The notes: generated by a model from the sequence alone, not told the origin. A stretch of 10,580 nucleotides of DNA from a virus (IMGVR_UViG_2602041863_000006); one strand, 5' to 3'. Shown: positions 1 through 9,284, counted from the stretch's first letter. Made by a program: numbers and translations.

Positions 1-207
1 AGTTCCATTCCCCACCACCGTGCCACTTGATGCACCATCAAGCCAGTCGAAATTCATACCTCCACTGTTTGGTCTCCTTAATGGAACGGTATGTGTATGT
101 GCGCCAGCACTATTTGCAGTACCAGATACATTGTGGGTATCGCCATCATCGGTATCGGTGATGTCGTCCTCTGCGGGTCCGGGTTCAGTTCTGGCAACCA
201 TACTCAT
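1..207 (-). CDS. Hypothetical protein, N-terminal 69 codons only (gene runs off the left edge); Gly/Ser/Thr-rich with an AGAHTHT motif reminiscent of phage tail-fibre repeats
   Basis: ATG at 207..205 (minus) preceded by GGAG with an 8-nt spacer; the frame stays open to position 1; an in-frame stop lies upstream at 265-267. Translation: MSMVARTEPGPAEDDITDTDDGDTHNVSGTANSAGAHTHTVPLRRPNSGGMNFDWLDGASSGTVVGNGT. It does not resemble a P2 major capsid protein (gpN), which would be expected after O. Confidence 0.4.
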   Translation of the reverse strand, partial: MSMVARTEPGPAEDDITDTDDGDTHNVSGTANSAGAHTHTVPLRRPNSGGMNFDWLDGASSGTVVGNGT

Positions 208-302
208 GGGGTTCACTCCTGAAAAAAATCGGGCGGTGGGTGCGCGGTGTAAACGGTCACGGAGTCAAACCGGAACACCGCGCACGCCGCCCGCTGACGG
301 GG

Positions 303-890
303 TCAGTCGTTAATCCCCATTACGCGGTTAAACCACTGGGTGCCTTCTTCCTGGCGTTGTTCTGCCATTTCGATGATTTCAGACTCGATGGCTTCGGAAA
401 TGAGCGGTGCTTCACCCTGGACACTGTTGAACGTCATCACCGCCTGACGCTGCTGTGCCGTGAATTTCAGGCGCTCAGTGCCCAGGCTTGCCGGGGTGTC
501 GGTCATCGCCAGCCCGACCAGATAGGCGCGCCCGTTAACGGAGAACTGCGGGTGCAGTTCGATACTGGAATAGATTTTCTTGCCGTCCGCGACAAGCTGC
601 TTCATGCGCTCGGTCGGTTCGATTTCTGCATACAGCGCAGTACGTCCGGCCAGCGGACCTTCCGTAATGTCTTCCGTACTCAGTGCGGTGACATCGCCCA
701 TTGCGGAAAATTCGCTTGACGGGCATGGCGAGAGATAGTGCTCAACGTTCACGCGGGCAGCGTAAACATCCGGGTTGAAGTTCTCGGCGGCTTCACGCAG
801 ATGCACCGGACTGATTTCACGGCCATCAACAGTTGATCCGGAGACAGCCACGCGAAACTTTTTGCGGGATGTCTTTTTTTCATTAGCCAT
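303..890 (-). CDS. O: Capsid scaffolding protein, P2 gpO-like, apparently shortened (~195 aa versus ~284 aa in P2)
   Basis: ORF 303..923 (-). The N-terminal two-thirds (KKFRVAVSGSTVDGREIS...VEHY...YLVGLAMTDTPASLGTE) matches my recollection of P2 gpO. Preferred start is the ATG at 890..888, which has a GAGGGG Shine-Dalgarno 8 nt upstream; the ATG at 923 has none. The C-terminal tail is unlike gpO. Confidence 0.7.
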   Translation of the reverse strand: MANEKKTSRKKFRVAVSGSTVDGREISPVHLREAAENFNPDVYAARVNVEHYLSPCPSSEFSAMGDVTALSTEDITEGPLAGRTALYAEIEPTERMKQLVADGKKIYSSIELHPQFSVNGRAYLVGLAMTDTPASLGTERLKFTAQQRQAVMTFNSVQGEAPLISEAIESEIIEMAEQRQEEGTQWFNRVMGIND

Positions 891-1044: not shown

Positions 1045-2796
1045 ATGATTCAGGACGCTTTTGTGCGCCAGCGTGCGCGGCAACTTTACTGGCAGGGTTA
1101 TCCGCCCGCAGAAATATCACGTCTGATGGGAATAAACCCGAACACGATTTATGCGTGGAAAAAACGCGACCAGTGGGATGAAACGCCACCCGTGCAGCGT
1201 GTCACGCAGTCCATCGATGCGCGCCTCATCCAGCTTACTGAAAAACAGAATAAAACAGGTGGTGACTTTAAGGAAATAGACCTGCTGACCCGGCAGCTTA
1301 AAAAACTGCATGATGGCCAGCCGGATGCGACGGCCACAGGAAAGAAAGGCCGGGCGAAAAAACTTAAAAATCATTTCACGCCGGAGCAGATTGCCGCACT
1401 GCGGGAAAAAATCATCAGCAGGCTGGAGTGGCATCAGCGGGGCTGGTTTGACTCCCTGAGCCTTTGCAGGGAAGCCGGGATACGTAACAGGATGATCCTG
1501 AAATCCCGACAGATTGGGGCGACCTGGTATTTTGCACAGGAAGCACTGCTGATGGCGCTGCGTGACGATGTGGCACAACCTTACCAGCGTAACCAGATTT
1601 TTTTGTCTGCGTCGCGTCGTCAGGCGTTCCAGTTTAAAAGCATTATTCAGAAGGCCGCGGCTGAAGTTGATGTGGAGCTGAAAGGGGGCGATAAAATCAT
1701 CCTCTCCAACGGCGCAGAACTGCATTTTCTCGGTACTTCTGCTGCGACGGCACAGTCCTACACAGGCAATTTTTATTTTGATGAATTTTTCTGGGTCAGT
1801 CGCTTTGCTGAACTGCGCAAGGTGGCTGGCGCTATGGCAACCCTCAGCGGGCTGCGACGCACCTACTTCTCCACGCCATCCACCGAAACGCACGAGGCAT
1901 ACGTCTACTGGAACGGCGACCGCTGGAACGAGAAAAAGGCCGCGCATAAACGCCAGCGTTTTTCTGTGGACTGGAAAACGCTGCATAACGGGCTTATCTG
2001 CCCCGACCGGACGTGGCGGCAAATTGTCACGCTGGAAGATGTGGTTAATCACGGCTGGAAACACACCGATATTGACGAAATTCGTGATGAAAACACCGAA
2101 GACGAGTTCCGCAATCTCTATATGTGTGAGTTTGTCCGCGAAGGGGAATCGGCATTTAACCTGAATATCCTGATTGGCTGCGGTGTTGACGGATACGACG
2201 ACTGGAAAGACTGGAAACCTTTTGCTCCCCGCCCGATGGGGAATCGTCCGGTATGGATTGGGTATGACGCAAACGGCAGCAGTGGAAACGGCGACAGCGG
2301 CGCTGTGTCCGTGGTGGTTCCTCCGGCTGTTCCTGGTGGCCGTTTTCGAACGGTGGAGACGCGACGCGTTCAGGGGCTGGAGTTTGAAGAACAGGCCAGA
2401 GTCATTGAAGAGTTCACGTGTCGCTACAACGTGGAACACATCGGCATTGATGCGACTGGCGGGCACGGGGATGCCGTTTATCAGATAGTGAAACGGTTTT
2501 TCCCTGCTGCTATTCCGTACACCTTCACGCTGTCATCAAAACGGTCGCTGGTACTGAAAATGCTGCAAATAATGCGTGCCGGGCGGTGGGAATACGATCG
2601 CGCCGAACGCGAGCTGGTCGCGGCCTTTAACGCCGTGCGTAAGGTGAAAACACCGGGCGGCTTTATCACTTACGAAACGGACCGCGCGAGGGGGATCAGC
2701 CATGGCGACCTTGCGTGGGCAACCATGCTTGCTGTCATTAATGAACCGATTGGCGGCGAAGGAGAAAACGAGCGTTTCACGGTTATGGAGTTCTGA
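1045..2796 (+). CDS. P: Terminase ATPase (large) subunit, P2 gpP-like
   Basis: 583-aa ORF with a G-rich Shine-Dalgarno (AGGGGGAG, 1035-1042). N-terminal HTH-like segment (YPPAEISRLMGINPNTIYAWKKR) typical of gpP-family terminases. Size matches P2 gpP (~590 aa). The stop overlaps the downstream portal start (ATGA at 2794-2798). Confidence 0.85.
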   Translation: MIQDAFVRQRARQLYWQGYPPAEISRLMGINPNTIYAWKKRDQWDETPPVQRVTQSIDARLIQLTEKQNKTGGDFKEIDLLTRQLKKLHDGQPDATATGKKGRAKKLKNHFTPEQIAALREKIISRLEWHQRGWFDSLSLCREAGIRNRMILKSRQIGATWYFAQEALLMALRDDVAQPYQRNQIFLSASRRQAFQFKSIIQKAAAEVDVELKGGDKIILSNGAELHFLGTSAATAQSYTGNFYFDEFFWVSRFAELRKVAGAMATLSGLRRTYFSTPSTETHEAYVYWNGDRWNEKKAAHKRQRFSVDWKTLHNGLICPDRTWRQIVTLEDVVNHGWKHTDIDEIRDENTEDEFRNLYMCEFVREGESAFNLNILIGCGVDGYDDWKDWKPFAPRPMGNRPVWIGYDANGSSGNGDSGAVSVVVPPAVPGGRFRTVETRRVQGLEFEEQARVIEEFTCRYNVEHIGIDATGGHGDAVYQIVKRFFPAAIPYTFTLSSKRSLVLKMLQIMRAGRWEYDRAERELVAAFNAVRKVKTPGGFITYETDRARGISHGDLAWATMLAVINEPIGGEGENERFTVMEF

Positions 2797-3842
2797 TGAG
2801 CAGAAAAAATAAAAAAGTGCGCATGAGTTCACGCATTGATCTCGCTGATGCGCTCAGGAAAGAATCATCGCTCAGTGCATTCACATTTGATGGTCCTTAT
2901 CGCCTGACCGGGCATGACCTGCTGGACAATATGTACTGTGCTGATAACGGGCGGTGGTATGAAACCCCGGTGGACTGGTACGGTCTGGCAAGAGCTGCCC
3001 GGCAAACGTCCTGGCATCAGTCTGCGCTTTACTTTAAGCGCAATGTATTGCTCGGCTGCTATATTCCGCACCCGCTGCTTTCCCGGCAGGATTTCTCGGC
3101 GCTGGCGCTGGACTGGTTTGTGTTCGGTAACGCATTCCTTGAGCTTCGGAGCAATATGCTCGGCGAACCGCTTAAATTACGGCACGCCCTGGCGAAATAC
3201 ATGCGACGCGGAAGCGATCTTGAATCATGGTGGTATGTGCAGGATGGCAAGGATGCGTTTCAGTTTCGTCCTGGCAAAGTGTGCCACCTGATGAATCCGG
3301 ACATTAACCAGGAAATCTACGGCATGCCGGAATATCTTGGCGCATTACTCTCGGCCAGCCTGTCTCATTCGGCGGACATGTTCAGAAAACTGTACTACGA
3401 CAATGGATCCCACGCCGGGTGCATCATCTACATCGGTGCAGCGCAGGTAAACCGCGAAAGCATGGACTCCCTGAAGGAAACGCTACAGGGTGCGCGTGGT
3501 GGTGGTGCATTTAAAAACGTGCTCATTCACGCGCCCAACGGGGGCAAAGAAGGTGTGCAAATTTTGCCGTTCCAGCAGATCACCGCAAAGGATGAGTTCA
3601 TGAATGTTAAGGCGGCATCCCGTGATGATGTGCTGGCTGCGCACCGCGTTCCGCCGCAACTGATGGGGGCGATGCCGGGCGAAAAAAGTGCGTTTGGTGA
3701 TGTGGAGAAGGCAGCGCGGGTTTACGCAATTAACGAGCTGATGCCCGTAATGGAGGCCATGAAGCATATCAATGACTGGCTTGGCGAAGAGGTGATCCGC
3801 TTTAACCCTTACGCACTGCTGGACACTCAGCCCACATCCTGA
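2796..3842 (+). CDS. Q: Portal protein, P2 gpQ-like
   Basis: 348-aa ORF, translationally coupled to P (ATGA overlap), GGAG at 2787-2790. Size and position downstream of P match P2 gpQ (~344 aa). Confidence 0.85.
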   Translation: MSRKNKKVRMSSRIDLADALRKESSLSAFTFDGPYRLTGHDLLDNMYCADNGRWYETPVDWYGLARAARQTSWHQSALYFKRNVLLGCYIPHPLLSRQDFSALALDWFVFGNAFLELRSNMLGEPLKLRHALAKYMRRGSDLESWWYVQDGKDAFQFRPGKVCHLMNPDINQEIYGMPEYLGALLSASLSHSADMFRKLYYDNGSHAGCIIYIGAAQVNRESMDSLKETLQGARGGGAFKNVLIHAPNGGKEGVQILPFQQITAKDEFMNVKAASRDDVLAAHRVPPQLMGAMPGEKSAFGDVEKAARVYAINELMPVMEAMKHINDWLGEEVIRFNPYALLDTQPTS

Positions 3843-3868
3843 CGCGCTTCGCTTGTCTGCTGCTTCGC

Positions 3869-3893
3869 CGGGGCATAAAAAATTTATGCCCCG
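3869..3893. other. Perfect inverted repeat (11-bp arms, 3-nt loop) 27 bp downstream of the portal stop; possible terminator or protein-binding palindrome
   Basis: CGGGGCATAAA-aaa-TTTATGCCCCG. No U-tract follows on either strand, so it is not a classic intrinsic terminator. Confidence 0.35.
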
Positions 3894-4316
3894 ACTCTCC
3901 AGCTCCTGTATCAATCAGATAATTTCACGACATCTTCCAGCTTATCGCCATCATCGACGATCAGGCTCTTACGCAATCCCACCGCGTTGACTGCATGTTC
4001 TTGCCGCCTCAGTGCGATTTTGACGGCCTTATCTGTCACCCCATCAAATCAAAAGCCCTCACGTCTTTTTCACGCTCAGTGTGAGAAATACAGCCATTCT
4101 GTTGTGTCGCTGCGACATCGTTCAGGGAATGCTATTTACCCCCTGAAACGCGGGCTGTTCCCCCGTCACCTGCGCGCAGAAAAAGTGCGTTTTTTTGTGC
4201 ACGCACGGATCCTTGACGGATCCAGCCGCCACGCGGGCCGGAAGGGCAAAAAGTCGTTCAAAATAATTGTGCAAATTTGTGCACTATCGTGCATGTAAAT
4301 TCATAAAAAAATTACA

Positions 4317-4339
4317 GAAAAAAGGCCGCTTTCGCGGCC
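4317..4339 (-). terminator. Rho-independent terminator for the ATPase-peptidase operon
   Basis: GGCCGC-tttc-GCGGCC hairpin (4324-4339) followed on the minus strand by a run of 7 T (complement of 4317-4323). It lies 8 bp past the peptidase stop (4347-4349). Confidence 0.6.
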
Positions 4340-4346
4340 ATAAAAA

Positions 4347-6551
4347 TTACGTGTCGAGAGAAATTTGTGTGCGCAGTTGAATAGGATTCAGAATTGTATA
4401 TCGCTGGCGAATAACATTATATAAATCAAAGTCTTTTACCCTTACGCTTATTACCATCGCATATTGCATATCAGGGGCTGAAACTCCCTTAACATGGCGC
4501 GAAGAATCTCGGGCATGATACCGTATATCAAAAACTGGATCGCTTAATAATGTATCAGCACTGAACTTTTTGCTTCTGTGCAAACAAGTTTCCCACTTAT
4601 GACCTTCACTCCTACACTCCCTTTCAGTCTTATACTGGCTTTTTTGACCAAAGAAATCATCTGTATCGGTATCGTCAAGGCCGAATCTTGGGCGGAAAGT
4701 TACCTGCATACCGGCCCTTGTATAGTTTACTGAATGTTCAGGATCTACTGGGGTTTGAATGCATAAAGTAGCGGTAAGCTCAAATGCTTCGTCAAAGGGA
4801 ACATCAGGGAATGGGATCGGTGCCCTTAAATATTTATTTTTTGCTAATGAACCATAGTAAATTACTGTAGCAGTATCATTTGGACAATCGATTAAAACGT
4901 TAGGATCCTCACTAAACCGTCCCCAACCGATATGTTCACGCGAATATTTTCTTGATGTTTCAGCATGATGAACAAGCAACGCTTTCAATGCAATGGTGTT
5001 CAATGGAGTTCCTGATAGAGCCGCAACTCCAGCGGCCGTTCTCAATGCTAATGGAGAGGCATAACTGGTTCCTTGAACTCCAACTATAGAACCAAGCAAA
5101 GGGTTGTAAGTGTAAAAAGGCTCGTCGTCGCTTCCACCAAAAATAACACCATCAGGTTTAACGAATCCGGGGCTTCTGCCTGGGCCAATACAGCTATATG
5201 GTGCCCGCCCCCATTTTTCACCGCTACGATCAGCAGCACCAATCGCTAGCGCGTTTACCATATCGGAAGGAGGTTGTATTCTCGCTGCATCACCGTCCTC
5301 ATTGCCATCATTCCCAACAGCAACAGTAAGTAATATCCCATGCTTAGCACAGATTTGGTCTAAAACAGCAGTCCATACATGAACCTCATCATCACCAATT
5401 GGAAGATGAGGACCAATACTTAGATTAGCGAACTTATAGTCACCACTATCAAGAACGGACTGTATTTTCTTAAGGACATCAAATAAATCCCAATTGCCAT
5501 TGTCACCTGATGTCGGTGAAAGAACTCTATAATGATCTACATTCATAAACGGTCTTTTAAAAGAAGGTGCATTTTCCTCGACACGTCCGAATAAGAAAGT
5601 GGATGTTACTTCATTACCGTGCTGCAATAATAATCCGCTTGTTTCTTTGGTGTCTGGATACACGTATTCCGTAACCCAATTACTCAAGTCAGCTGTCCCC
5701 AAGCCACCATCAAAAATGGCAATACGTTCGGATTCAAGAACAGCTTTAGAATTAGGGAGCTCCGGTGTAACTATATTAGATAACTTTCTGACAATGTTCG
5801 GCTGAGTACACCTGAGAGACGGCATCGGCCGCACAACGCGGATTAATGAAAAATCGAGTGTTTTTTTCATATCTTCAGGTCGCGCGTGTGCAACGATGAA
5901 AGTCAGTCCACCAACTTGGATTCTACTTTTGTAATCAACAGAGACACCATATTGTGCCGCATAGCTAATATAGGCTTTAACGATATCATCGTCTTCAACC
6001 CCAGCATGAAGAACCACTTCAAATTTTATCAAATCACTTTTCGCATGCTCAAAATTGCGTGCTCTCTCTTTTCCTTCAAAAAAGCTAACACTTTCAATTT
6101 CGATCAAATCCTTTTGTACGCCCTTCGGAGCTGTAGGGGAATTTAAAATTTCCTTAAATCTTATAACGGCATCATCATCACCGCTAACAAACAGTTGCGC
6201 CGTTACTAAGTCCTTATTCTGATCGCACTGACGTGCCGCTTTCCGTGGGCGAATGATTACCTGACGGCTACCGACATCCCGTAAACCTGTCGCTCTAAGT
6301 AATCCTTCCGGAAAGTAGCTTTTACCCAAAAACGCTGGGTGTAAAGTTAAATTGAATACACTCTCCCCCCTTGGCTTAGCCGCATCATCCAAACTGCGAA
6401 AGCGTGAGAGTAAAGTATCAATCTCTGGGTTTAAATGCTCCCTTACTTCTTCAAGAGTATAGGGATAGCGCTTACCATCCCTTCCTTTAGGCAAAGGTTC
6501 CTTTTTTGTCAGAACATGACCGTTACCTAAAAGTAAGTTCCTTTCCATCAT
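4347..6551 (-). CDS. ietS: Subtilisin-like (S8) serine peptidase, 734 aa, with a ~270-aa N-terminal region and ~200-aa C-terminal region of unknown function; candidate effector of an IetAS-like defence pair
   Basis: Catalytic triad motifs in subtilase order and spacing: Asp in IAIFDGGLG (D281), His in LLQHGNEVTS (H311), oxyanion Asn in AVGNDGN (N414), Ser in GTSYASPLAL (S496, codon complement of 5064-5066). The start ATG overlaps the upstream ATPase stop (ATGATG, 6546-6551) with GGGGG 8 nt upstream. AT-rich codon usage unlike the flanking phage genes. Gene symbol is from recall of the Gao et al. 2020 system and is unverified. Confidence 0.85.
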   Translation of the reverse strand: MMERNLLLGNGHVLTKKEPLPKGRDGKRYPYTLEEVREHLNPEIDTLLSRFRSLDDAAKPRGESVFNLTLHPAFLGKSYFPEGLLRATGLRDVGSRQVIIRPRKAARQCDQNKDLVTAQLFVSGDDDAVIRFKEILNSPTAPKGVQKDLIEIESVSFFEGKERARNFEHAKSDLIKFEVVLHAGVEDDDIVKAYISYAAQYGVSVDYKSRIQVGGLTFIVAHARPEDMKKTLDFSLIRVVRPMPSLRCTQPNIVRKLSNIVTPELPNSKAVLESERIAIFDGGLGTADLSNWVTEYVYPDTKETSGLLLQHGNEVTSTFLFGRVEENAPSFKRPFMNVDHYRVLSPTSGDNGNWDLFDVLKKIQSVLDSGDYKFANLSIGPHLPIGDDEVHVWTAVLDQICAKHGILLTVAVGNDGNEDGDAARIQPPSDMVNALAIGAADRSGEKWGRAPYSCIGPGRSPGFVKPDGVIFGGSDDEPFYTYNPLLGSIVGVQGTSYASPLALRTAAGVAALSGTPLNTIALKALLVHHAETSRKYSREHIGWGRFSEDPNVLIDCPNDTATVIYYGSLAKNKYLRAPIPFPDVPFDEAFELTATLCIQTPVDPEHSVNYTRAGMQVTFRPRFGLDDTDTDDFFGQKSQYKTERECRSEGHKWETCLHRSKKFSADTLLSDPVFDIRYHARDSSRHVKGVSAPDMQYAMVISVRVKDFDLYNVIRQRYTILNPIQLRTQISLDT

Positions 6552-7630
6552 TTAATCCCCCACTTTTGTAATTTATTCGCGATTGTTGGATGTGAAACAC
6601 CAACTAATTCAGCTATCTTCCTATTTGAAAAACCGTCAAAATGATATTTAATTATATTGAGATCATTATCGCTAAATTCATCCAATGAAACCCTCTCCGT
6701 AATTACGGCTTCTATTAATGAGCTTTCAAATGGAATATTTCTAAGTACCTCATTCTTTTTGGAGAAATTCAAAATACGGTTAATGATGGCAAAGGACATG
6801 CCATCTAATAATGGTGCAAGTTTTTTAGATAGTTCAGGTTCAATATTATGATTGACTAAATATCTATCTATCAGTTCTACTGATGGCATATTAAATTTAA
6901 GGATGTGCTCAAATCGACGCCAAACAGCCGGATCTAAGATATCAGGGTGATTAGTCGCAGCAACAAGAAGCGAGGTCGCTGGCCACTCATCTATGGTCTG
7001 TAGGAGTACAGTAACTAAACGTTTTAATTCTCCAACGTCCCTGTCATCATCACGTCTTTTTGCAACAGCATCAAATTCATCAAGCAAAAGGACACATGGT
7101 TTCTCTTTGGCATAATCCATAACGGATTTAATATTATTACCTGTTTTTCCCAAAAGAGAACTCATTACAGATGAGAGATCCAATGTTAAAAGAGGTAAAT
7201 TTAACTTTGCAGCAAGCCAATGTGCGGACATTGTTTTGCCTACGCCTGGCGGGCCAGAAAGTAAAACCGTCTTCACAGGTTCAAGACCAGCTTTGAACAA
7301 AGAAACAGCATTCTCTCTTTCGTTAACAATTGACTCCAGCTTCTTTGAGATATCCGTATTCCATACAGGTTCTTCAACAATTGCGTTGACAGATGTTTCC
7401 TGCAAAAGGTTTCGTCTGGAGTCTCCATCCACAGGCATAGGAGCCTTACTAGATGCCCCACGTAATACTGTTCCCTCAGCAATTAACGAAGCCAGCTTAG
7501 AAGCTAAAGCCTCATCATTTTTACGGATGTTGTTAATCATCTTTCTGCATAGGAGTGTAAATGCATTTGCGTTGCCTTTGATGCCTTGCTCGATGAGTTT
7601 GAAAAGTTCATCCTCCCTCACGTTTACCAT
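6548..7630 (-). CDS. ietA: AAA+ ATPase (classical AAA clade) with C-terminal helix-turn-helix; candidate ATPase partner of an IetAS-like defence pair
   Basis: Walker A GPPGVGKT (complement of 7232-7255), Walker B VLLLDEFD, sensor and Arg-rich segment (ATNHPDILDPAVWRRFE), C-terminal HTH-like NRKIAELVGVSHPTIANKLQK. Preferred start is the ATG at 7630 (MVNVRE...), which has GGGGG upstream; the ORF-track start at 7675 has no Shine-Dalgarno. Gene symbol is from recall and is unverified. Confidence 0.85.
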   Translation of the reverse strand: MVNVREDELFKLIEQGIKGNANAFTLLCRKMINNIRKNDEALASKLASLIAEGTVLRGASSKAPMPVDGDSRRNLLQETSVNAIVEEPVWNTDISKKLESIVNERENAVSLFKAGLEPVKTVLLSGPPGVGKTMSAHWLAAKLNLPLLTLDLSSVMSSLLGKTGNNIKSVMDYAKEKPCVLLLDEFDAVAKRRDDDRDVGELKRLVTVLLQTIDEWPATSLLVAATNHPDILDPAVWRRFEHILKFNMPSVELIDRYLVNHNIEPELSKKLAPLLDGMSFAIINRILNFSKKNEVLRNIPFESSLIEAVITERVSLDEFSDNDLNIIKYHFDGFSNRKIAELVGVSHPTIANKLQKWGIK

Positions 7631-7934
7631 AAAACCCCCAATAAAACATAAGCTTGTGTAAGCTGGTAACTGCATTGATGAAAATCAGTGCCTAATGTTA
7701 CCACTCTTGCTGGCGTTATTCAAAGAGTATCCTCACTTTTTTACTGTATGGATAATCAGCATAAAATCTATCCAGTTGGGTTACTCGAACATATTGTCAA
7801 TACTTGTTTCCAACGATTGATCAGTTCTACAGTTTTATCTCCTTCACTTGTGTTGGCAGCATGCTTATTCCTGAACCAGCTCGATTACTTGGCCATTTGA
7901 GAAAGATGTGTAGATCTTCTGATGGTTTGTATTG

Positions 7935-7965
7935 GAACGGGGTGCATAGTGATTTGCACCCCGTT
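7935..7965. other. GC-rich inverted repeat between parR and the AT-rich island; possible bidirectional terminator or boundary element
   Basis: AACGGGGTGCA-tagtgattt-TGCACCCCGTT, followed on the + strand by TCTTTATGTT. A second short palindrome CAGGGCG-aata-CGCCCTG at 7988-8005 sits just past the parR stop. Confidence 0.35.
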
Positions 7966-8008
7966 CTTTATGTTATGGGATTGGTGGCAGGGCGAATACG
8001 CCCTGATG

Positions 8009-8320
8009 TTATTCAGGAAATAACGCCCGGATATTTCCGGCCATCTGACTGGTTATCTGTGCGGTTGGTACTGGCTGTGACTCGGGGCGTTCTGTCCTGG
8101 TTTGTGTCACTGATAACGTCTCATCGTCAGCCCATGCAGCCAGTCGGTAAGCCTCTGCCGGATTCATTTTCAGAAGTGCCAGCCCGGCCAGAAAAGCCAC
8201 GCGTTGGCCGCTTTTGCGGGCTTCTGGTGTAAGGCTGTCCAGCCATGTGCATGCTTCGCCTTCGTTCTTGACGGCGGCGGGCTTCAGATAGAAACTTATC
8301 CGTCTGGTTGGTGTCGTCAT
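8009..8320 (-). CDS. parR: ParR-like small centromere-binding protein (103 aa)
   Basis: ATG at 8320..8318 preceded by AAGGAG; starts 4 nt after the parM stop, as in plasmid R1 parM-parR. Weak similarity to R1 ParR in the N-terminal part (RRISFYLKP...GLALL). The ORF-track start at 8455 overlaps parM and is rejected. Confidence 0.6.
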   Translation of the reverse strand: MTTPTRRISFYLKPAAVKNEGEACTWLDSLTPEARKSGQRVAFLAGLALLKMNPAEAYRLAAWADDETLSVTQTRTERPESQPVPTAQITSQMAGNIRALFPE

Positions 8321-8324
8321 TGGT

Positions 8325-9284
8325 TTACTCCTTGTCCATTGCGTACAGCCCATTAACCAGAGCAAACTGTGGCACTCCGTCCGCGATGAAAGTCGCATTA
8401 ACTCCGCAGGCTTCGCGGATAGCGGGTGCCACAATCTCCGCCCCTCCACCGACAACCATCACCCGCCCGTAACCCGAAAAAACCGCCAGCGCGCGGATCA
8501 CGCGTTGTTTCAGTGTTTCTTCCTTTTCACGAATAACCGCCATCAGGCTGTTGTAATGCGCGTCATTGTGGATGTGCCGGCGCAGCCAGGCTTCATCATG
8601 GCGATGTTCGATAATGGTATTGGCGATGTGGTGACTGGTACGCATACCGTTAGTGGCCATCACCGACAGTACGGCATCGGCCATCAGGGAAACGCCTACG
8701 TGTGGATCGCAAAACACCTGGCTGATACCTGCCAGTTGTCCCTGAACCTTTGCCACATCCAGCGTGGTTCCTCCTAAATCCACAATCAGCAGGGATTCAA
8801 ACGGACTCATGTCAGCCAGTGCTTTAAAGCCAGCCGGAATGGATTCAGGCATAACCCGCACGTTACGGATAGTGAATGCCTCACCGTTCTGGTACTCCAC
8901 CGGGCGCATAACGTTCGCTTTTTTGCGGTTGATGTTGGCCATGTCCGGCTGTGCGTTTGTGTCGAAATATTCGCTCAGTGGCAGGGTGACAACCACATCC
9001 ACCTCCTGTGGTGTGATGCCTGATTTGACCAGCGCGTGGTGAATGGCGATTACATTCACATCGCTGTACTGGTATTGCGTGTCGGTTGTCTGGACAAAGC
9101 GATCGCTGACCGGATCAAAACCATAGCGCACGCCATCAAGCATGTAGTTCGCAGGCTGCGAGCCGCCGAACGGCGCAGACCATTCCGACTTGAAGCTGTT
9201 CGGGCTGATGGCGTTGCGGCGTTCGCCGTTCTCAGTCCATGCCAGCTTGATGTTGGTGGAGCCGTCGTCGATACAAATTTTCAT
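8325..9284 (-). CDS. parM: ParM/StbA-like actin-type plasmid segregation ATPase (319 aa)
   Basis: N-terminus MKICIDDGSTNIKLAW...ISPNSFKSEW...YQYSDVNVIAIHHAL closely resembles plasmid R1 ParM (from recall). Size matches R1 ParM (~320 aa). AGGAAA Shine-Dalgarno 6 nt upstream of the ATG. Confidence 0.85.
   Translation of the reverse strand: MKICIDDGSTNIKLAWTENGERRNAISPNSFKSEWSAPFGGSQPANYMLDGVRYGFDPVSDRFVQTTDTQYQYSDVNVIAIHHALVKSGITPQEVDVVVTLPLSEYFDTNAQPDMANINRKKANVMRPVEYQNGEAFTIRNVRVMPESIPAGFKALADMSPFESLLIVDLGGTTLDVAKVQGQLAGISQVFCDPHVGVSLMADAVLSVMATNGMRTSHHIANTIIEHRHDEAWLRRHIHNDAHYNSLMAVIREKEETLKQRVIRALAVFSGYGRVMVVGGGAEIVAPAIREACGVNATFIADGVPQFALVNGLYAMDKE

What the first reader, a model, noticed from the sequence alone, without database searches (positions are those of the whole stretch)
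7676..8008. ~330 bp AT-rich leader upstream of the ATPase gene with no credible ORF
This spacer must carry the promoter and any regulatory input for the defence operon. It is long for a simple promoter and is bounded by a GC-rich palindrome, so it may contain an operator for the ATPase's own HTH or a small RNA.
Basis: inference. Interest (0 to 1): 0.35.

Follow-up and report, generated by a model that had tools for sequence, protein, structure and literature searches.

The report
Patchwork spacer holding the ietAS promoter
The long gap upstream of the ietAS anti-phage operon in this P2-like prophage is mostly recombination debris (dead ends of two genes and a leftover terminator); only the ~140 bp next to the gene is a conserved control region, with a promoter, probable binding sites for the ATPase's own DNA-binding domain, and a possible SOS (LexA) box.

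Summary
The interval is real: no intact gene lies between ietA and parR. The true ietA start is 7630, not 7675, so the gap is 378 bp (7631-8008). Its 41% GC equals that of the ietAS genes.

Its length comes from its history, not from regulation.
- 7768-7891: frameshifted last ~41 codons of a foreign replication gene A (phiT5282H type).
- 7891-7977: last codons and intrinsic terminator of an earlier cargo gene (memP of Shae_phiSM).
- 7964/7988-8008: P88 backbone hairpin after parR.

Only 7631-7766 is conserved in ietAS loci from other contexts (IetA 71-91% identical). It holds:
- a sigma-70 promoter, TTGAAT-17-TGgTAACAT;
- convergent TGGTAA/TTACCA half-sites at the -10 element and about +20. 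This motif recurs upstream of ietA in unalignable lineages (12 sites against 0.9 expected) and tracks the recognition helix of IetA's C-terminal HTH;
- a conserved LexA-like box at 7742-7761 (heterology index 7.4, best in the window), placed unusually at about -63.

No Rfam match and no covariation-supported RNA were found. The small-RNA idea and the idea that length implies regulation are not. Promoter, operator and LexA roles are inferred, not shown.

The parts
4347..6551 (-). ietS, S8 subtilase (734 aa), second gene of the operon
   Evidence: Pfam Peptidase_S8 4e-17; PADLOC IetS 5.7e-41
6548..7630 (-). ietA, AAA ATPase with a C-terminal HTH (360 aa). True start is the ATG at 7630-7628.
   Evidence: Pfam AAA 9.5e-31 and HTH_50 at residues 335-359. 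PADLOC IetA 2.5e-89, aligned from residue 7. The start and the GGGG Shine-Dalgarno sequence (7635-7639) are conserved in 10 lineages, while the ATG at 7675 is not.
7651..7664 (.). Small palindrome AGCTT-gtgt-AAGCT in the predicted 5' UTR. Other lineages have a different palindrome at this place.
   Evidence: phiT5282H has CAACTTA-tg-TAAGTTG. Not supported as a fixed-register RNA helix (44% of cells paired).
7664..7669 (-). Proximal half-site TTACCA (read on the ietA strand), about +20 of the predicted transcript, 39 nt before the ATG
   Evidence: Inverted repeat I7, TGGTAAC/GTTACCA with a 26-nt gap. Conserved in 8 of 10 enterobacterial lineages. Same position (-39/-41) in Vibrio L005 and in L063.
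7695..7703 (-). Extended -10 element TGgTAACAT. It contains the distal half-site TGGTAA (7698-7703).
   Evidence: AGTGGTAA[CGT]AT is present in all 10 lineages at a fixed distance from the -35 and the ATG. The promoter assignment is an inference: 8 of 12 consensus matches plus TG, which is below the threshold of the scan.
7718..7723 (-). -35 element TTGAAT, 17 nt from the -10. Predicted transcription start about 7688.
   Evidence: CTTTGAAT/CTTTGAAA is conserved. Inference; no transcript data.
7742..7761 (.). LexA-like (SOS) box TACTGTATGGATAATCAGCA, i.e. CTG-N10-CAG, centred about -63 from the predicted start
   Evidence: Heterology index 7.37; next best in the 10.6-kb window is 13.4; 1 of 20000 shuffles of 7631-7770 does as well. 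It is also the best site in the 18.6-kb prophage stretch L004. The same matrix gives 1.8 to the annotated phage 186 p95 LexA site. CTG-N10-CAG is kept in the lineages L017, L020, L022, L024, L027, L029 and window/phiT; the first C is lost in L025 and L028. The matrix was rebuilt from boxes recalled from memory.
7768..7891 (-). Pseudogene: the last ~41 codons plus stop (TAG, 7770-7768) of a foreign replication gene A, broken by a 7-bp deletion
   Evidence: DNA matches phiT5282H up to 7891. tblastn of the phiT5282H gpA C-terminus hits 7771-7839 and 7833-7889 in two frames, E 4.6e-13. The resident gpA C-terminus is unrelated.
7891..7913 (+). Remnant of the last codons (PFEKDV*) of an earlier + strand cargo gene (memP of Citrobacter phage Shae_phiSM)
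   Evidence: 90% DNA identity over 7891-8000 to Shae_phiSM, overlapping the memP 3' end; tblastn PLEKDV/PFEKDV
7934..7977 (+). Intrinsic terminator of that lost gene: 13-bp stem, then TTCTTTATGTT
   Evidence: Terminator scan. Fold of -25.4 kcal/mol, z -5.8 on the + strand. The minus-strand version (-23.4 kcal/mol) has no U tract.
7988..8005 (.). Backbone hairpin CAGGGCG-aata-CGCCCTG just after the parR stop; no U tract on the parR strand
   Evidence: Shared with P88-type prophages: 505 E. coli genomes match from 7964, 7988 or 8009 onward. Fold of -13.1 kcal/mol.
8009..8320 (-). parR/stbB partition gene, the right-hand neighbour (phage backbone)
   Evidence: Pfam Plasmid_stab_B 3.5e-24; annotated in P88 and in AR_0085

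Best explanation
The window is a P88-like (P2 family) prophage. The ietAS defence cassette sits in the known variable hotspot between the replication side (gene A, here followed by parMR) and cos/portal gene Q.

The gap upstream of ietA is a patchwork left by a cargo swap.
- The cassette came from a phage of the phiT5282H type, in which ietA lies directly after gene A. It brought along its own ~137-bp control region (7631-7766) and the last ~41 codons of the donor's gene A (7768-7891, now frameshifted).
- It replaced an earlier cargo (memP-like). Only the last codons and the + strand terminator of that cargo survive (7891-7977).
- These abut the backbone hairpin after parR (7988-8005).
- The left joint used 143 bp of shared cos-proximal sequence (4152-4294). 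The right joint, at 7891, shows no extended homology.

Function is confined to 7631-7766.
- A sigma-70 promoter with an extended -10 (TTGAAT-17-TGgTAACAT) gives a ~58-nt leader.
- IetA is reported as the antitoxin-like partner of the protease. It probably binds convergent TGGTAA/TTACCA half-sites over the -10 and at about +20 through its C-terminal HTH, and so limits its own operon, as type II antitoxins do.
- A conserved LexA-like box about 63 bp upstream of the start may add an SOS input.

Shown here: the mosaic composition, the conservation pattern and the motif statistics. Inferred: the promoter, IetA binding and LexA binding.
For: Hotspot and cassette:
- The backbone matches P88 on both sides, and the cargo matches phiT5282H over 4152-7891.
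- PADLOC identifies IetA (2.5e-89) and IetS (5.7e-41).
- The A-Q hotspot is described in PMC9122126. Small intergenic pseudogenes there are read as recombination remnants in PMC13586616.

Mosaic:
- The gpA remnant is found in two frames, E 4.6e-13, and is foreign to the resident gpA.
- The memP tail and its terminator are identified.
- Backbone breakpoints lie at 7964, 7988 or 8009 in 505 genomes.
- All 32 E. coli genomes that carry this ietA have 7350-7900: 31 with the mosaic and one with an intact gene A next to ietA.
- Gene A lies directly upstream of ietA in Pantoea, Serratia, Limnobaculum, Rosenbergiella and L029.
- A ~420-bp gpA remnant also travels with ietAS in Pantoea ananatis, E 6e-39.

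Control region:
- Only the proximal ~135 nt align across 10 lineages, with the box, -35, extended -10, TTACCA and Shine-Dalgarno sequence at fixed spacing.

Operator:
- TGGTAA/TTACCA is the top non-homopolymer 6-mer in 38 upstream regions: 33 sites against 3.5 expected.
- With one representative per lineage: 12 sites against 0.94 expected, 0 of 5000 shuffles.
- Positions are similar in unalignable lineages: window -73/-39; Vibrio -83, -61/-39; L063 -77/-41.
- The motif is present in 5 of 6 lineages with helix [SP][HR]P[TLIM] and in 0 of 5 with other helices, Fisher p 0.015.
- The HTH residues are invariant across the alignment.
- IetA as antitoxin: PMC13069673.

LexA:
-; phage 186 gives a precedent at the same genome position.
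Against: - There are no transcript or binding data. The promoter matches only 8 of 12 consensus positions and was not listed by the scan.
- The LexA-like box lies upstream of the -35, not over the promoter as in classic SOS genes and in 186 p95.
- One half of the box reads CTGA rather than CTGT.
- Two lineages (L025, L028) have ATG instead of CTG, with HI about 11.
- The HI matrix was rebuilt from memory.
- The half-sites are 34 bp apart, too far for a simple dimer.
- One half-site coincides with the -10 element, whose own function could explain part of its conservation.
- TTACCA is also complementary to the start-codon context AUGGUAA, so an RNA reading remains open for the enterobacterial clade.
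- Lineages in the motif test are few and not fully independent.
Confidence: 0.7

Rival explanations
1. The interval encodes a small RNA on the + strand. A promoter TTCAAA-17-TACTGT (7719-7747), whose -10 is one half of the LexA-like box (as in phage 186 p95), would start near 7755 and stop at the terminator at 7934-7977. The result would be an SOS-inducible transcript of about 220 nt.
For: - TACTGT is kept in all 10 lineages, and the shared TTTGAA/TTCAAA block could serve both directions.
- 186 p95 uses TACTGT as its -10 inside its LexA box.
- There is a strong + strand terminator.
- 7754-7977 folds with z -3.75, but most of that comes from the terminator hairpin.
Against: - The body of such a transcript would be antisense to a dead gene fragment plus another gene's tail.
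- The terminator got there by accident of the cargo swap.
- The unit exists only in this mosaic lineage. In the ancestral layout the transcript would run antisense into gene A.
- No Rfam match.
- Sequence downstream of the box is not conserved across contexts.
Confidence: 0.1
2. TTACCA acts in the mRNA, not on DNA. UUACCA (7669-7664) pairs with UGGUAA overlapping the start codon (7629-7624) and lowers translation of IetA. Read-through transcripts that also carry the upstream UGGUAA could relieve this.
For: - RNAalifold's only consensus helix is this 6-bp stem, paired in 95% of cells.
- It appears in the single-sequence folds of phiT5282H and L025.
Against: - The stem never varies, so covariation says nothing. 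Consensus energy is only -2.3 kcal/mol.
- The 5' UTR fold has z -0.04.
- Vibrio, L063, L052 and L075 keep the TGGTAA/TTACCA sites but their start codons have no TGGTAA, which favours a DNA-binding protein.
Confidence: 0.12
3. The conserved box at 7742-7761 is not a LexA site. It would be an UP-element-like or activator site for RNA polymerase or for another host or phage factor, and ietAS would not respond to SOS.
For: - The box is centred about -63, a position typical of activators and alpha-CTD contacts, next to an A tract.
- One half-site is imperfect (CTGA); L025 and L028 have lost the C.
- In the SRDTIRK clade the box at the same place reads CTGT-N8-ATAG, not ACAG.
Against: - HI of 7.4 falls within the range of the training boxes (2.3-14.1), and the site is the best in both 10.6 kb and 18.6 kb.
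- CTG-N10-CAG is conserved across most lineages.
- LexA-like boxes recur in three clades that are otherwise unalignable.
- The P2 Ogr-type pattern TGT-N12-ACA is absent (read from the sequence).
Confidence: 0.3
4. The interval encodes a small protein: the + strand ORF 7688-7900 (70 aa), or its internal ATG forms.
For: ORFs of 70 and 41 aa exist.
Against: - No Pfam or PADLOC match.
- The ORF is antisense to the promoter and to the gpA remnant.
- A 7-bp indel changes its frame in phiT5282H, L015 and L016.
- It is absent from ietAS loci in other contexts.
Confidence: 0.03

Closest known systems
Defence hotspot between gene A and portal gene Q/cos of P2-like phages, and its small intergenic pseudogene remnants (Rousset et al. 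2022, PMC9122126; NAR 2026, PMC13586616)
   Same: - Same genomic position.
- Cargo is swapped between related phages.
- Short unannotated gene fragments are left at the joints.
- The cassette carries its own promoter.
   Different: - In P88-type phages parMR lies between gene A and the hotspot, so the imported gene A tail is visibly foreign.
- The exact composition of this spacer (gpA tail, memP tail, terminator) and the one-sided homologous plus illegitimate joints were not found described in the papers read.
Phage 186 p95-tum-orf97 SOS operon (NC_001317 annotation)
   Same: - A LexA-type box and a promoter lie directly after gene A.
- They drive accessory genes before cos.
- One of those genes (orf97) blocks phage infection.
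   Different: - In 186 the box (TACTGTATGTTTATACAGTA, HI 1.8) overlaps the -10. Here it lies about 63 bp upstream of the predicted start and is weaker (HI 7.4).
- No sequence similarity was seen by eye between the two regulatory regions; no alignment was run.
- LexA binding has not been tested here.
Autoregulated type II toxin-antitoxin operons, and IetAS as first described on the Agrobacterium plasmid pTiC58 (cited in PMC13069673)
   Same: - The first gene encodes the antitoxin-like partner, with a DNA-binding HTH.
- Repeated half-sites overlap the promoter, which is the usual layout for negative autoregulation.
   Different: - The binder would be an AAA ATPase, most similar in sequence to hexameric p97/Cdc48-type AAA ATPases, not a small dimeric antitoxin.
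- Half-sites are 22-34 bp apart.
- The Agrobacterium protein aligns only over residues 8-253 at 32% identity, so it may lack this HTH.
- No autoregulation of ietAS was found in the papers searched.

Membership tests
IetAS defence system (PADLOC definition) | AAA ATPase matching an IetA profile | tested here: met
   PDLC02196 IetA, E 2.5e-89, residues 7-356 on profile positions 5-370 of 374
IetAS defence system (PADLOC definition) | Adjacent S8 protease matching an IetS profile, on the same strand | tested here: met
   PDLC02197 IetS, E 5.7e-41. The genes overlap by 4 nt (6548-6551).
IetAS defence system (PADLOC definition) | Protection against phage, or toxin-antitoxin behaviour | not testable with these tools
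   Only the literature on relatives is available (PMC13069673; bioRxiv 2022.08.21.504612).
P2-like A-Q defence hotspot | Located between the replication gene A side and portal gene Q/cos of a P2-family phage | tested here: met
   Portal at 2796-3842 and terminase at 1045-2796 on one side; parR, parM and gene A from 8009 on the other
P2-like A-Q defence hotspot | Different cargo in otherwise near-identical phages | tested here: met
   P88 has four small genes here, Shae_phiSM has memP, and this window has ietAS. The backbone is 96-98% identical.
LexA (SOS) operator of Gammaproteobacteria | Palindrome CTGT-N8-ACAG within TACTG(TA)5CAGTA | tested here: inconclusive
   CTGA-N8-ACAG: 15 of 20 matches to the consensus, with CTG and CAG intact
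LexA (SOS) operator of Gammaproteobacteria | Heterology index in the range of functional boxes | tested here: met
   HI 7.37 against a training leave-one-out range of 2.3-14.1 (median 7.6). The annotated 186 p95 site scores 1.8. The matrix was rebuilt from memory, so values are approximate.
LexA (SOS) operator of Gammaproteobacteria | Overlaps the -35, the -10 or the transcription start of the regulated promoter | tested here: not met
   For the predicted ietA promoter the box is centred about -63. It would overlap the -10 only of a hypothetical divergent promoter.
LexA (SOS) operator of Gammaproteobacteria | Bound by LexA, with the gene induced by DNA damage | not testable with these tools
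   Needs EMSA or footprinting, and expression data.
Autoregulated toxin-antitoxin-type operon | The first-gene product carries a DNA-binding domain | tested here: met
   HTH_50 at residues 335-359 (E 4.6e-6, 26.7 bits against a cut-off of 27), plus HTH_38 and Sigma70_r4_2. Homologues carry PF18024 or PF13384. HTH residues are invariant in alignment A4.
Autoregulated toxin-antitoxin-type operon | Repeated operator half-sites at the promoter | tested here: met
   TGGTAA over the -10 and TTACCA at about +20. The motif is enriched across lineages and tracks the recognition helix.
Autoregulated toxin-antitoxin-type operon | The protein binds these sites and represses transcription | not testable with these tools
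   Needs EMSA and reporter assays.
Intrinsic (rho-independent) terminator | GC-rich stem-loop followed by a U tract on the transcribed strand | tested here: met
   On the + strand at 7934-7977: 13-bp stem, -25.4 kcal/mol, tail UUCUUUAUGUU. Not met on the minus strand (tail CAAUACAAAC), so it is not an evident barrier between parR and ietA.
Known RNA families (Rfam 15) / structured leader or sRNA | Covariance-model match, or covariation-supported structure | tested here: not met
   No match in 7631-8008 at E <= 1. No compensatory pairs. Leader fold z -0.04.

The most novel reading that the evidence does not exclude
IetA, a p97-like AAA ATPase, uses its conserved C-terminal HTH domains to sit on an array of TGGTAA-type half-sites at its own promoter. 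A LexA-type box then feeds DNA-damage or prophage-induction signals into the same promoter. IetAS would then be a DNA-bound, SOS-tuned defence/toxin-antitoxin module whose DNA binding is part of how it is held in check, or how it senses infection.
Probability: 0.2. Interest if true: 0.6.

Novelty: new member of a known kind. Interest (0 to 1): 0.35.

Why it matters
For genome reading: long 'leaders' in phage defence hotspots can be scar tissue. Here a dead replication-gene tail and an orphan terminator date and orient a cargo swap, showing that the cassette moved together with the end of gene A.

For IetAS, whose anti-phage mechanism is reported as unknown: the comparison gives a concrete, cheap-to-test control region of 137 bp. 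It gives a candidate operator word that co-varies with the ATPase's HTH. It also points to a possible SOS input at the same genome position as the LexA-controlled tum operon of phage 186.

For cloning: 7631-7766 should be enough to clone the system with its native promoter.

Tried and rejected
- Rfam scan of 3800-8500 at E <= 1. Nothing in the interval. The only hits are a sub-threshold 'Histone3' match, which is the ietS terminator hairpin, and a weak gyrA hit near cos.
- RNAalifold and pair counting on ten 5' UTRs. Only an invariant 6-bp stem emerged. The variable palindrome is not a fixed-register helix.
- Single-sequence folds. The leader is no more stable than shuffles.
- Small ORFs. No family match, and the frame is not conserved.
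- Promoter scan. It listed only one + strand site, TTTACT-16-TAAAAT at 7740-7767. Its -10 lies in sequence that is not conserved across contexts, so I did not adopt it.
- An upstream ietA-strand promoter using TACAGT as its -10. No conserved -35, so rejected.
- P2 Ogr/Delta late-promoter site (TGT-N12-ACA near -55). The pattern is absent from the box; this rests on memory of the consensus.
- Fur- and IHF-like readings of the box. Only partial matches, in parts that are not conserved.
- Local duplication as the source of the gpA fragment. Rejected, because the resident gpA C-terminus is unrelated.
- Genome-contig scan with the single protein. It returned only distant Vibrio and Porphyromonadaceae loci. 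The Vibrio loci turned out useful for the motif test.
- Look-up of P0014 found nothing.
- PDB sequence search. No IetA structure; only p97/Cdc48-type AAA domains.
- Literature searches found no description of ietAS promoter control.

Full report
**Context**

The window is a P2-family prophage of the P88 (Xuanwuvirus) type.
- Terminase (1045-2796) and portal (2796-3842) lie on the + strand.
- ietS (4347-6551), ietA (6548-7630), parR/stbB (8009-8320), parM (8325-9284) and replication gene A (from 9361) lie on the minus strand.
- The two low-GC genes are an IetAS defence pair: PADLOC IetA 2.5e-89 and IetS 5.7e-41.
- They occupy the variable hotspot between gene A and gene Q/cos described for P2-like phages (PMC9122126).
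- P88 itself carries four small genes there, and Citrobacter phage Shae_phiSM carries 'memP'.

**The observation**

No intact gene lies between ietA and parR.

That ATG is missing in phiT5282H, L015, L016 and L017. The ATG at 7630, with a GGGG ribosome-binding site, is kept in all ten lineages examined. The PADLOC profile also starts at residue 7 of the 360-aa form. The gap is therefore 7631-8008, 378 bp.

Its GC content (0.41) is that of the cassette (0.413), not a special property of the spacer. The backbone is 0.54-0.56.

Two GC-rich hairpins are real and far beyond chance: 7934-7967 at -25.4 kcal/mol (z -5.8), and 7988-8005 at -13.1 kcal/mol (z -4.4).

**What the spacer is made of**

Comparison with three phages splits it into four pieces.

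1. 7631-7766 continues the cassette's match to Enterobacter phage phiT5282H. There it is the whole 137-bp gap between gene A and ietA.
2. 7768-7891 still matches phiT5282H, but in that phage this stretch is the 3' end of gene A.
   - Translated, the window reads ...SNRAGSGISMLPTQVKEIK in one frame and DKTVELINRWKQVLTICSSNPTG* in another, separated by a 7-bp deletion.
   - tblastn gives E 4.6e-13.
   - The prophage's own gene A ends quite differently. The fragment is therefore foreign and dead.
3. From 7891 the match switches to Shae_phiSM at 90% identity. It covers the last codons of the + strand gene memP (PFEKDV*) and the hairpin at 7934-7967 with its T tract. This is a textbook terminator for that lost gene.
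4. From 7964, 7988 or 8009 onward (depending on the relative), 505 E. coli genomes share the P88 backbone, including the hairpin after parR.

On the other side of the cassette, P88 homology runs to 4294 and phiT5282H homology starts at 4152. The left crossover therefore used 143 bp of shared cos-proximal DNA. The right joint at 7891 shows no extended homology.

All 32 E. coli genomes with this ietA contain 7350-7900. One of them has an intact gene A next to ietA; the other 31 have the mosaic.

**Is this a general pattern?**

Yes.
- In Pantoea sp. B_9, Serratia, Limnobaculum, Rosenbergiella and a Logan contig, ietA (71-91% identical) lies directly after an intact gene A, with gaps of 103-230 bp.
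- In Pantoea ananatis, outside any phage context, a ~420-bp gene A pseudogene still precedes ietA (E 6e-39).
- IMG/VR contig L013 carries the window's short remnant in yet another setting.
- A 2026 survey of P2/P4 hotspots reports many small intergenic pseudogenes and reads them as remnants of intense recombination (PMC13586616).

So the length of this 'leader' records history, not control.

**The part that is conserved**

I aligned 270 nt upstream of ietA from ten lineages in four kinds of context. Only the proximal ~135 nt align. They contain, at fixed spacing on the ietA strand:
- (C/A)TGATTATYYATACAGTAAAAA;
- 20 nt;
- CTTTGAAT;
- 17 nt;
- AGTGGTAA[C/G/T]AT;
- 26 nt;
- TTACCA;
- a short palindrome that differs between lineages;
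- TGTTTTA;
- GGGG;
- ATG.

I read TTGAAT-17-TGgTAACAT (7723-7718 and 7703-7695) as a sigma-70 promoter with an extended -10. The start would be near 7688 and the leader about 58 nt. This is inference. The match is 8 of 12 plus TG, below the threshold of the scan.

**Operator for IetA**

TGGTAAC (over the -10) and GTTACCA (about +20) form a perfect 7-bp inverted repeat with a 26-nt gap. The decisive clue came from distant loci.
- Vibrio ietA (43% identical) has an unalignable upstream region that still contains TGGTAA at -83 and -61 and TTACCA at -39.
- L063 has TGGTAA at -77 and TTACCA at -41 and -20. The window has -73 and -39.
- Among 38 non-redundant upstream regions, TGGTAA/TTACCA is the top non-homopolymer 6-mer: 33 sites against 3.5 expected, with 11 regions holding two or more against 0.15 expected.
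- With one representative per lineage there are 12 sites against 0.94 expected, and 0 of 5000 shuffles reach that.
- The motif follows the HTH recognition helix. It is present in 5 of 6 lineages with S(H/R)PT(V/I)-like helices, and the sixth (L044) has GGTAC repeats in the same layout. It is absent in all 5 lineages with other helices (Fisher p 0.015). The SRDTIRK clade instead has TAGTCC next to its -10.
- The HTH is detected by Pfam, and its core residues are invariant across a 42-89% identity alignment.
- IetA is described as the antitoxin-like partner of the protease, and the anti-phage mechanism as unknown (PMC13069673).

Negative autoregulation by IetA through these sites is therefore the most economical reading.

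Caveats: the lineages are few and related. One half-site is also the -10. The 22-34 bp spacing suggests an oligomer rather than a dimer.

**A possible SOS input**

The distal conserved block contains CTG-N10-CAG (7742-7761, TACTGTATGGATAATCAGCA).

I scored it with a heterology-index matrix rebuilt from 25 E. coli LexA boxes recalled from memory.
- It scores 7.37. Training boxes score 2.3-14.1 in leave-one-out, median 7.6.
- It is the best site in the window (next best 13.4) and in an 18.6-kb prophage stretch.
- It is matched by 1 of 20000 shuffles of 7631-7770.
- The same matrix gives 1.8 to the LexA site annotated at phage 186 p95.
- Homologues score 5.3-8.8, apart from L025 and L028, where CTG has become ATG (about 11).
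- Two other ietA clades with unrelated upstream sequence also carry LexA-like boxes: -116 in the SRDTIRK clade, though that box ends ATAG, and -71 in the L053/L054 clade.
- Phage 186 offers a precedent: directly after gene A it has a LexA-controlled promoter driving tum and orf97, the latter blocking infection.

Against a simple repressor role, the box lies about 63 bp upstream of the predicted start, beside an A tract. There it could at most hinder upstream polymerase contacts. I put LexA binding at roughly even odds and mark it as untested.

**RNA readings**

- Rfam finds nothing in the interval.
- The leader folds no better than shuffles.
- RNAalifold returns only an invariant UUACCA:UGGUAA stem that would cover the start codon. 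It has no compensatory change and only -2.3 kcal/mol. Lineages that keep the DNA motif but lack TGGTAA at the start codon argue for a protein site.
- A + strand transcript is conceivable, from a 186-like promoter TTCAAA-17-TACTGT to the orphan terminator (about 7755-7975). Its body would be antisense to debris, and the unit exists only in this mosaic.

**Verdict**

About two thirds of the spacer is recombination scar, of a kind already recognised in these hotspots. The remaining 137 bp is an undescribed but conventional control region for IetAS.

My rough estimates of each step:
- mosaic composition: about 0.9;
- promoter: about 0.7;
- IetA operator: about 0.5;
- LexA input: about 0.4.

Interest is moderate to low for the finding as posed. 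It is somewhat higher for the testable operator and SOS hypotheses it leads to.

Noticed in passing
window 135-313 and 303-923: The prophage looks defective. Window 135-313 matches P88 locus L002 501-678, and window 311-4294 matches L002 2853-6836. About 2.2 kb is therefore missing, covering the terminase small subunit gene, the major capsid gene and the 3' part of the scaffold gene gpO. ORF 303-923 is a truncated gpO (Pfam positions 2-183 of 268).
   Followed up: partly
window 7631-7675: RefSeq/PGAP and several database entries annotate IetA as 375 aa, starting at the ATG at 7675. Comparison indicates the 360-aa form starting at 7630. The extra 15 codons cover the leader and the proximal TTACCA site.
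   Followed up: yes
window about 4316-4346 (minus strand): A canonical intrinsic terminator, GGCCGC-gaaa-GCGGCC plus a U run, lies directly after the ietS stop. The sub-threshold Rfam 'Histone3' hit at 4319-4364 is this hairpin.
   Followed up: yes
L024 1700-2500 (Pantoea ananatis CP035034.1); L013 about 1240-1360: ietAS cassettes outside the gene A context still drag a gene A 3' pseudogene with them: ~420 bp in P. ananatis (E 6e-39), and the same short remnant as the window in L013. This suggests the cassette is usually mobilised by breaks inside gene A.
   Followed up: partly
L072, L073, L076, L079, L080, L088, upstream of ietA (-116 to -40): A distant IetA clade (37-39% identity, HTH helix SRDTIRK) lacks TGGTAA. 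It has its own conserved TAGTCC next to a -10-like TACTAT, and a conserved near-LexA box TACTGTAATTTCATATAG (ending ATAG instead of ACAG) at a position like the window's box.
   Followed up: partly
L004 (E. coli AR_0085) versus the window: AR_0085 shares the ietAS-parMR-gene A segment at 98% identity, but its terminase and portal genes are only 74.5% identical to the window's. The same cassette and replication module therefore sit on different structural-gene backbones.
   Followed up: no
L029 2370-2397: In this relative the gene A reading frame runs through the LexA-like box (...TADYPYSKK*), so the box is coding there. In most other lineages gene A stops about 20 nt before the box.
   Followed up: no
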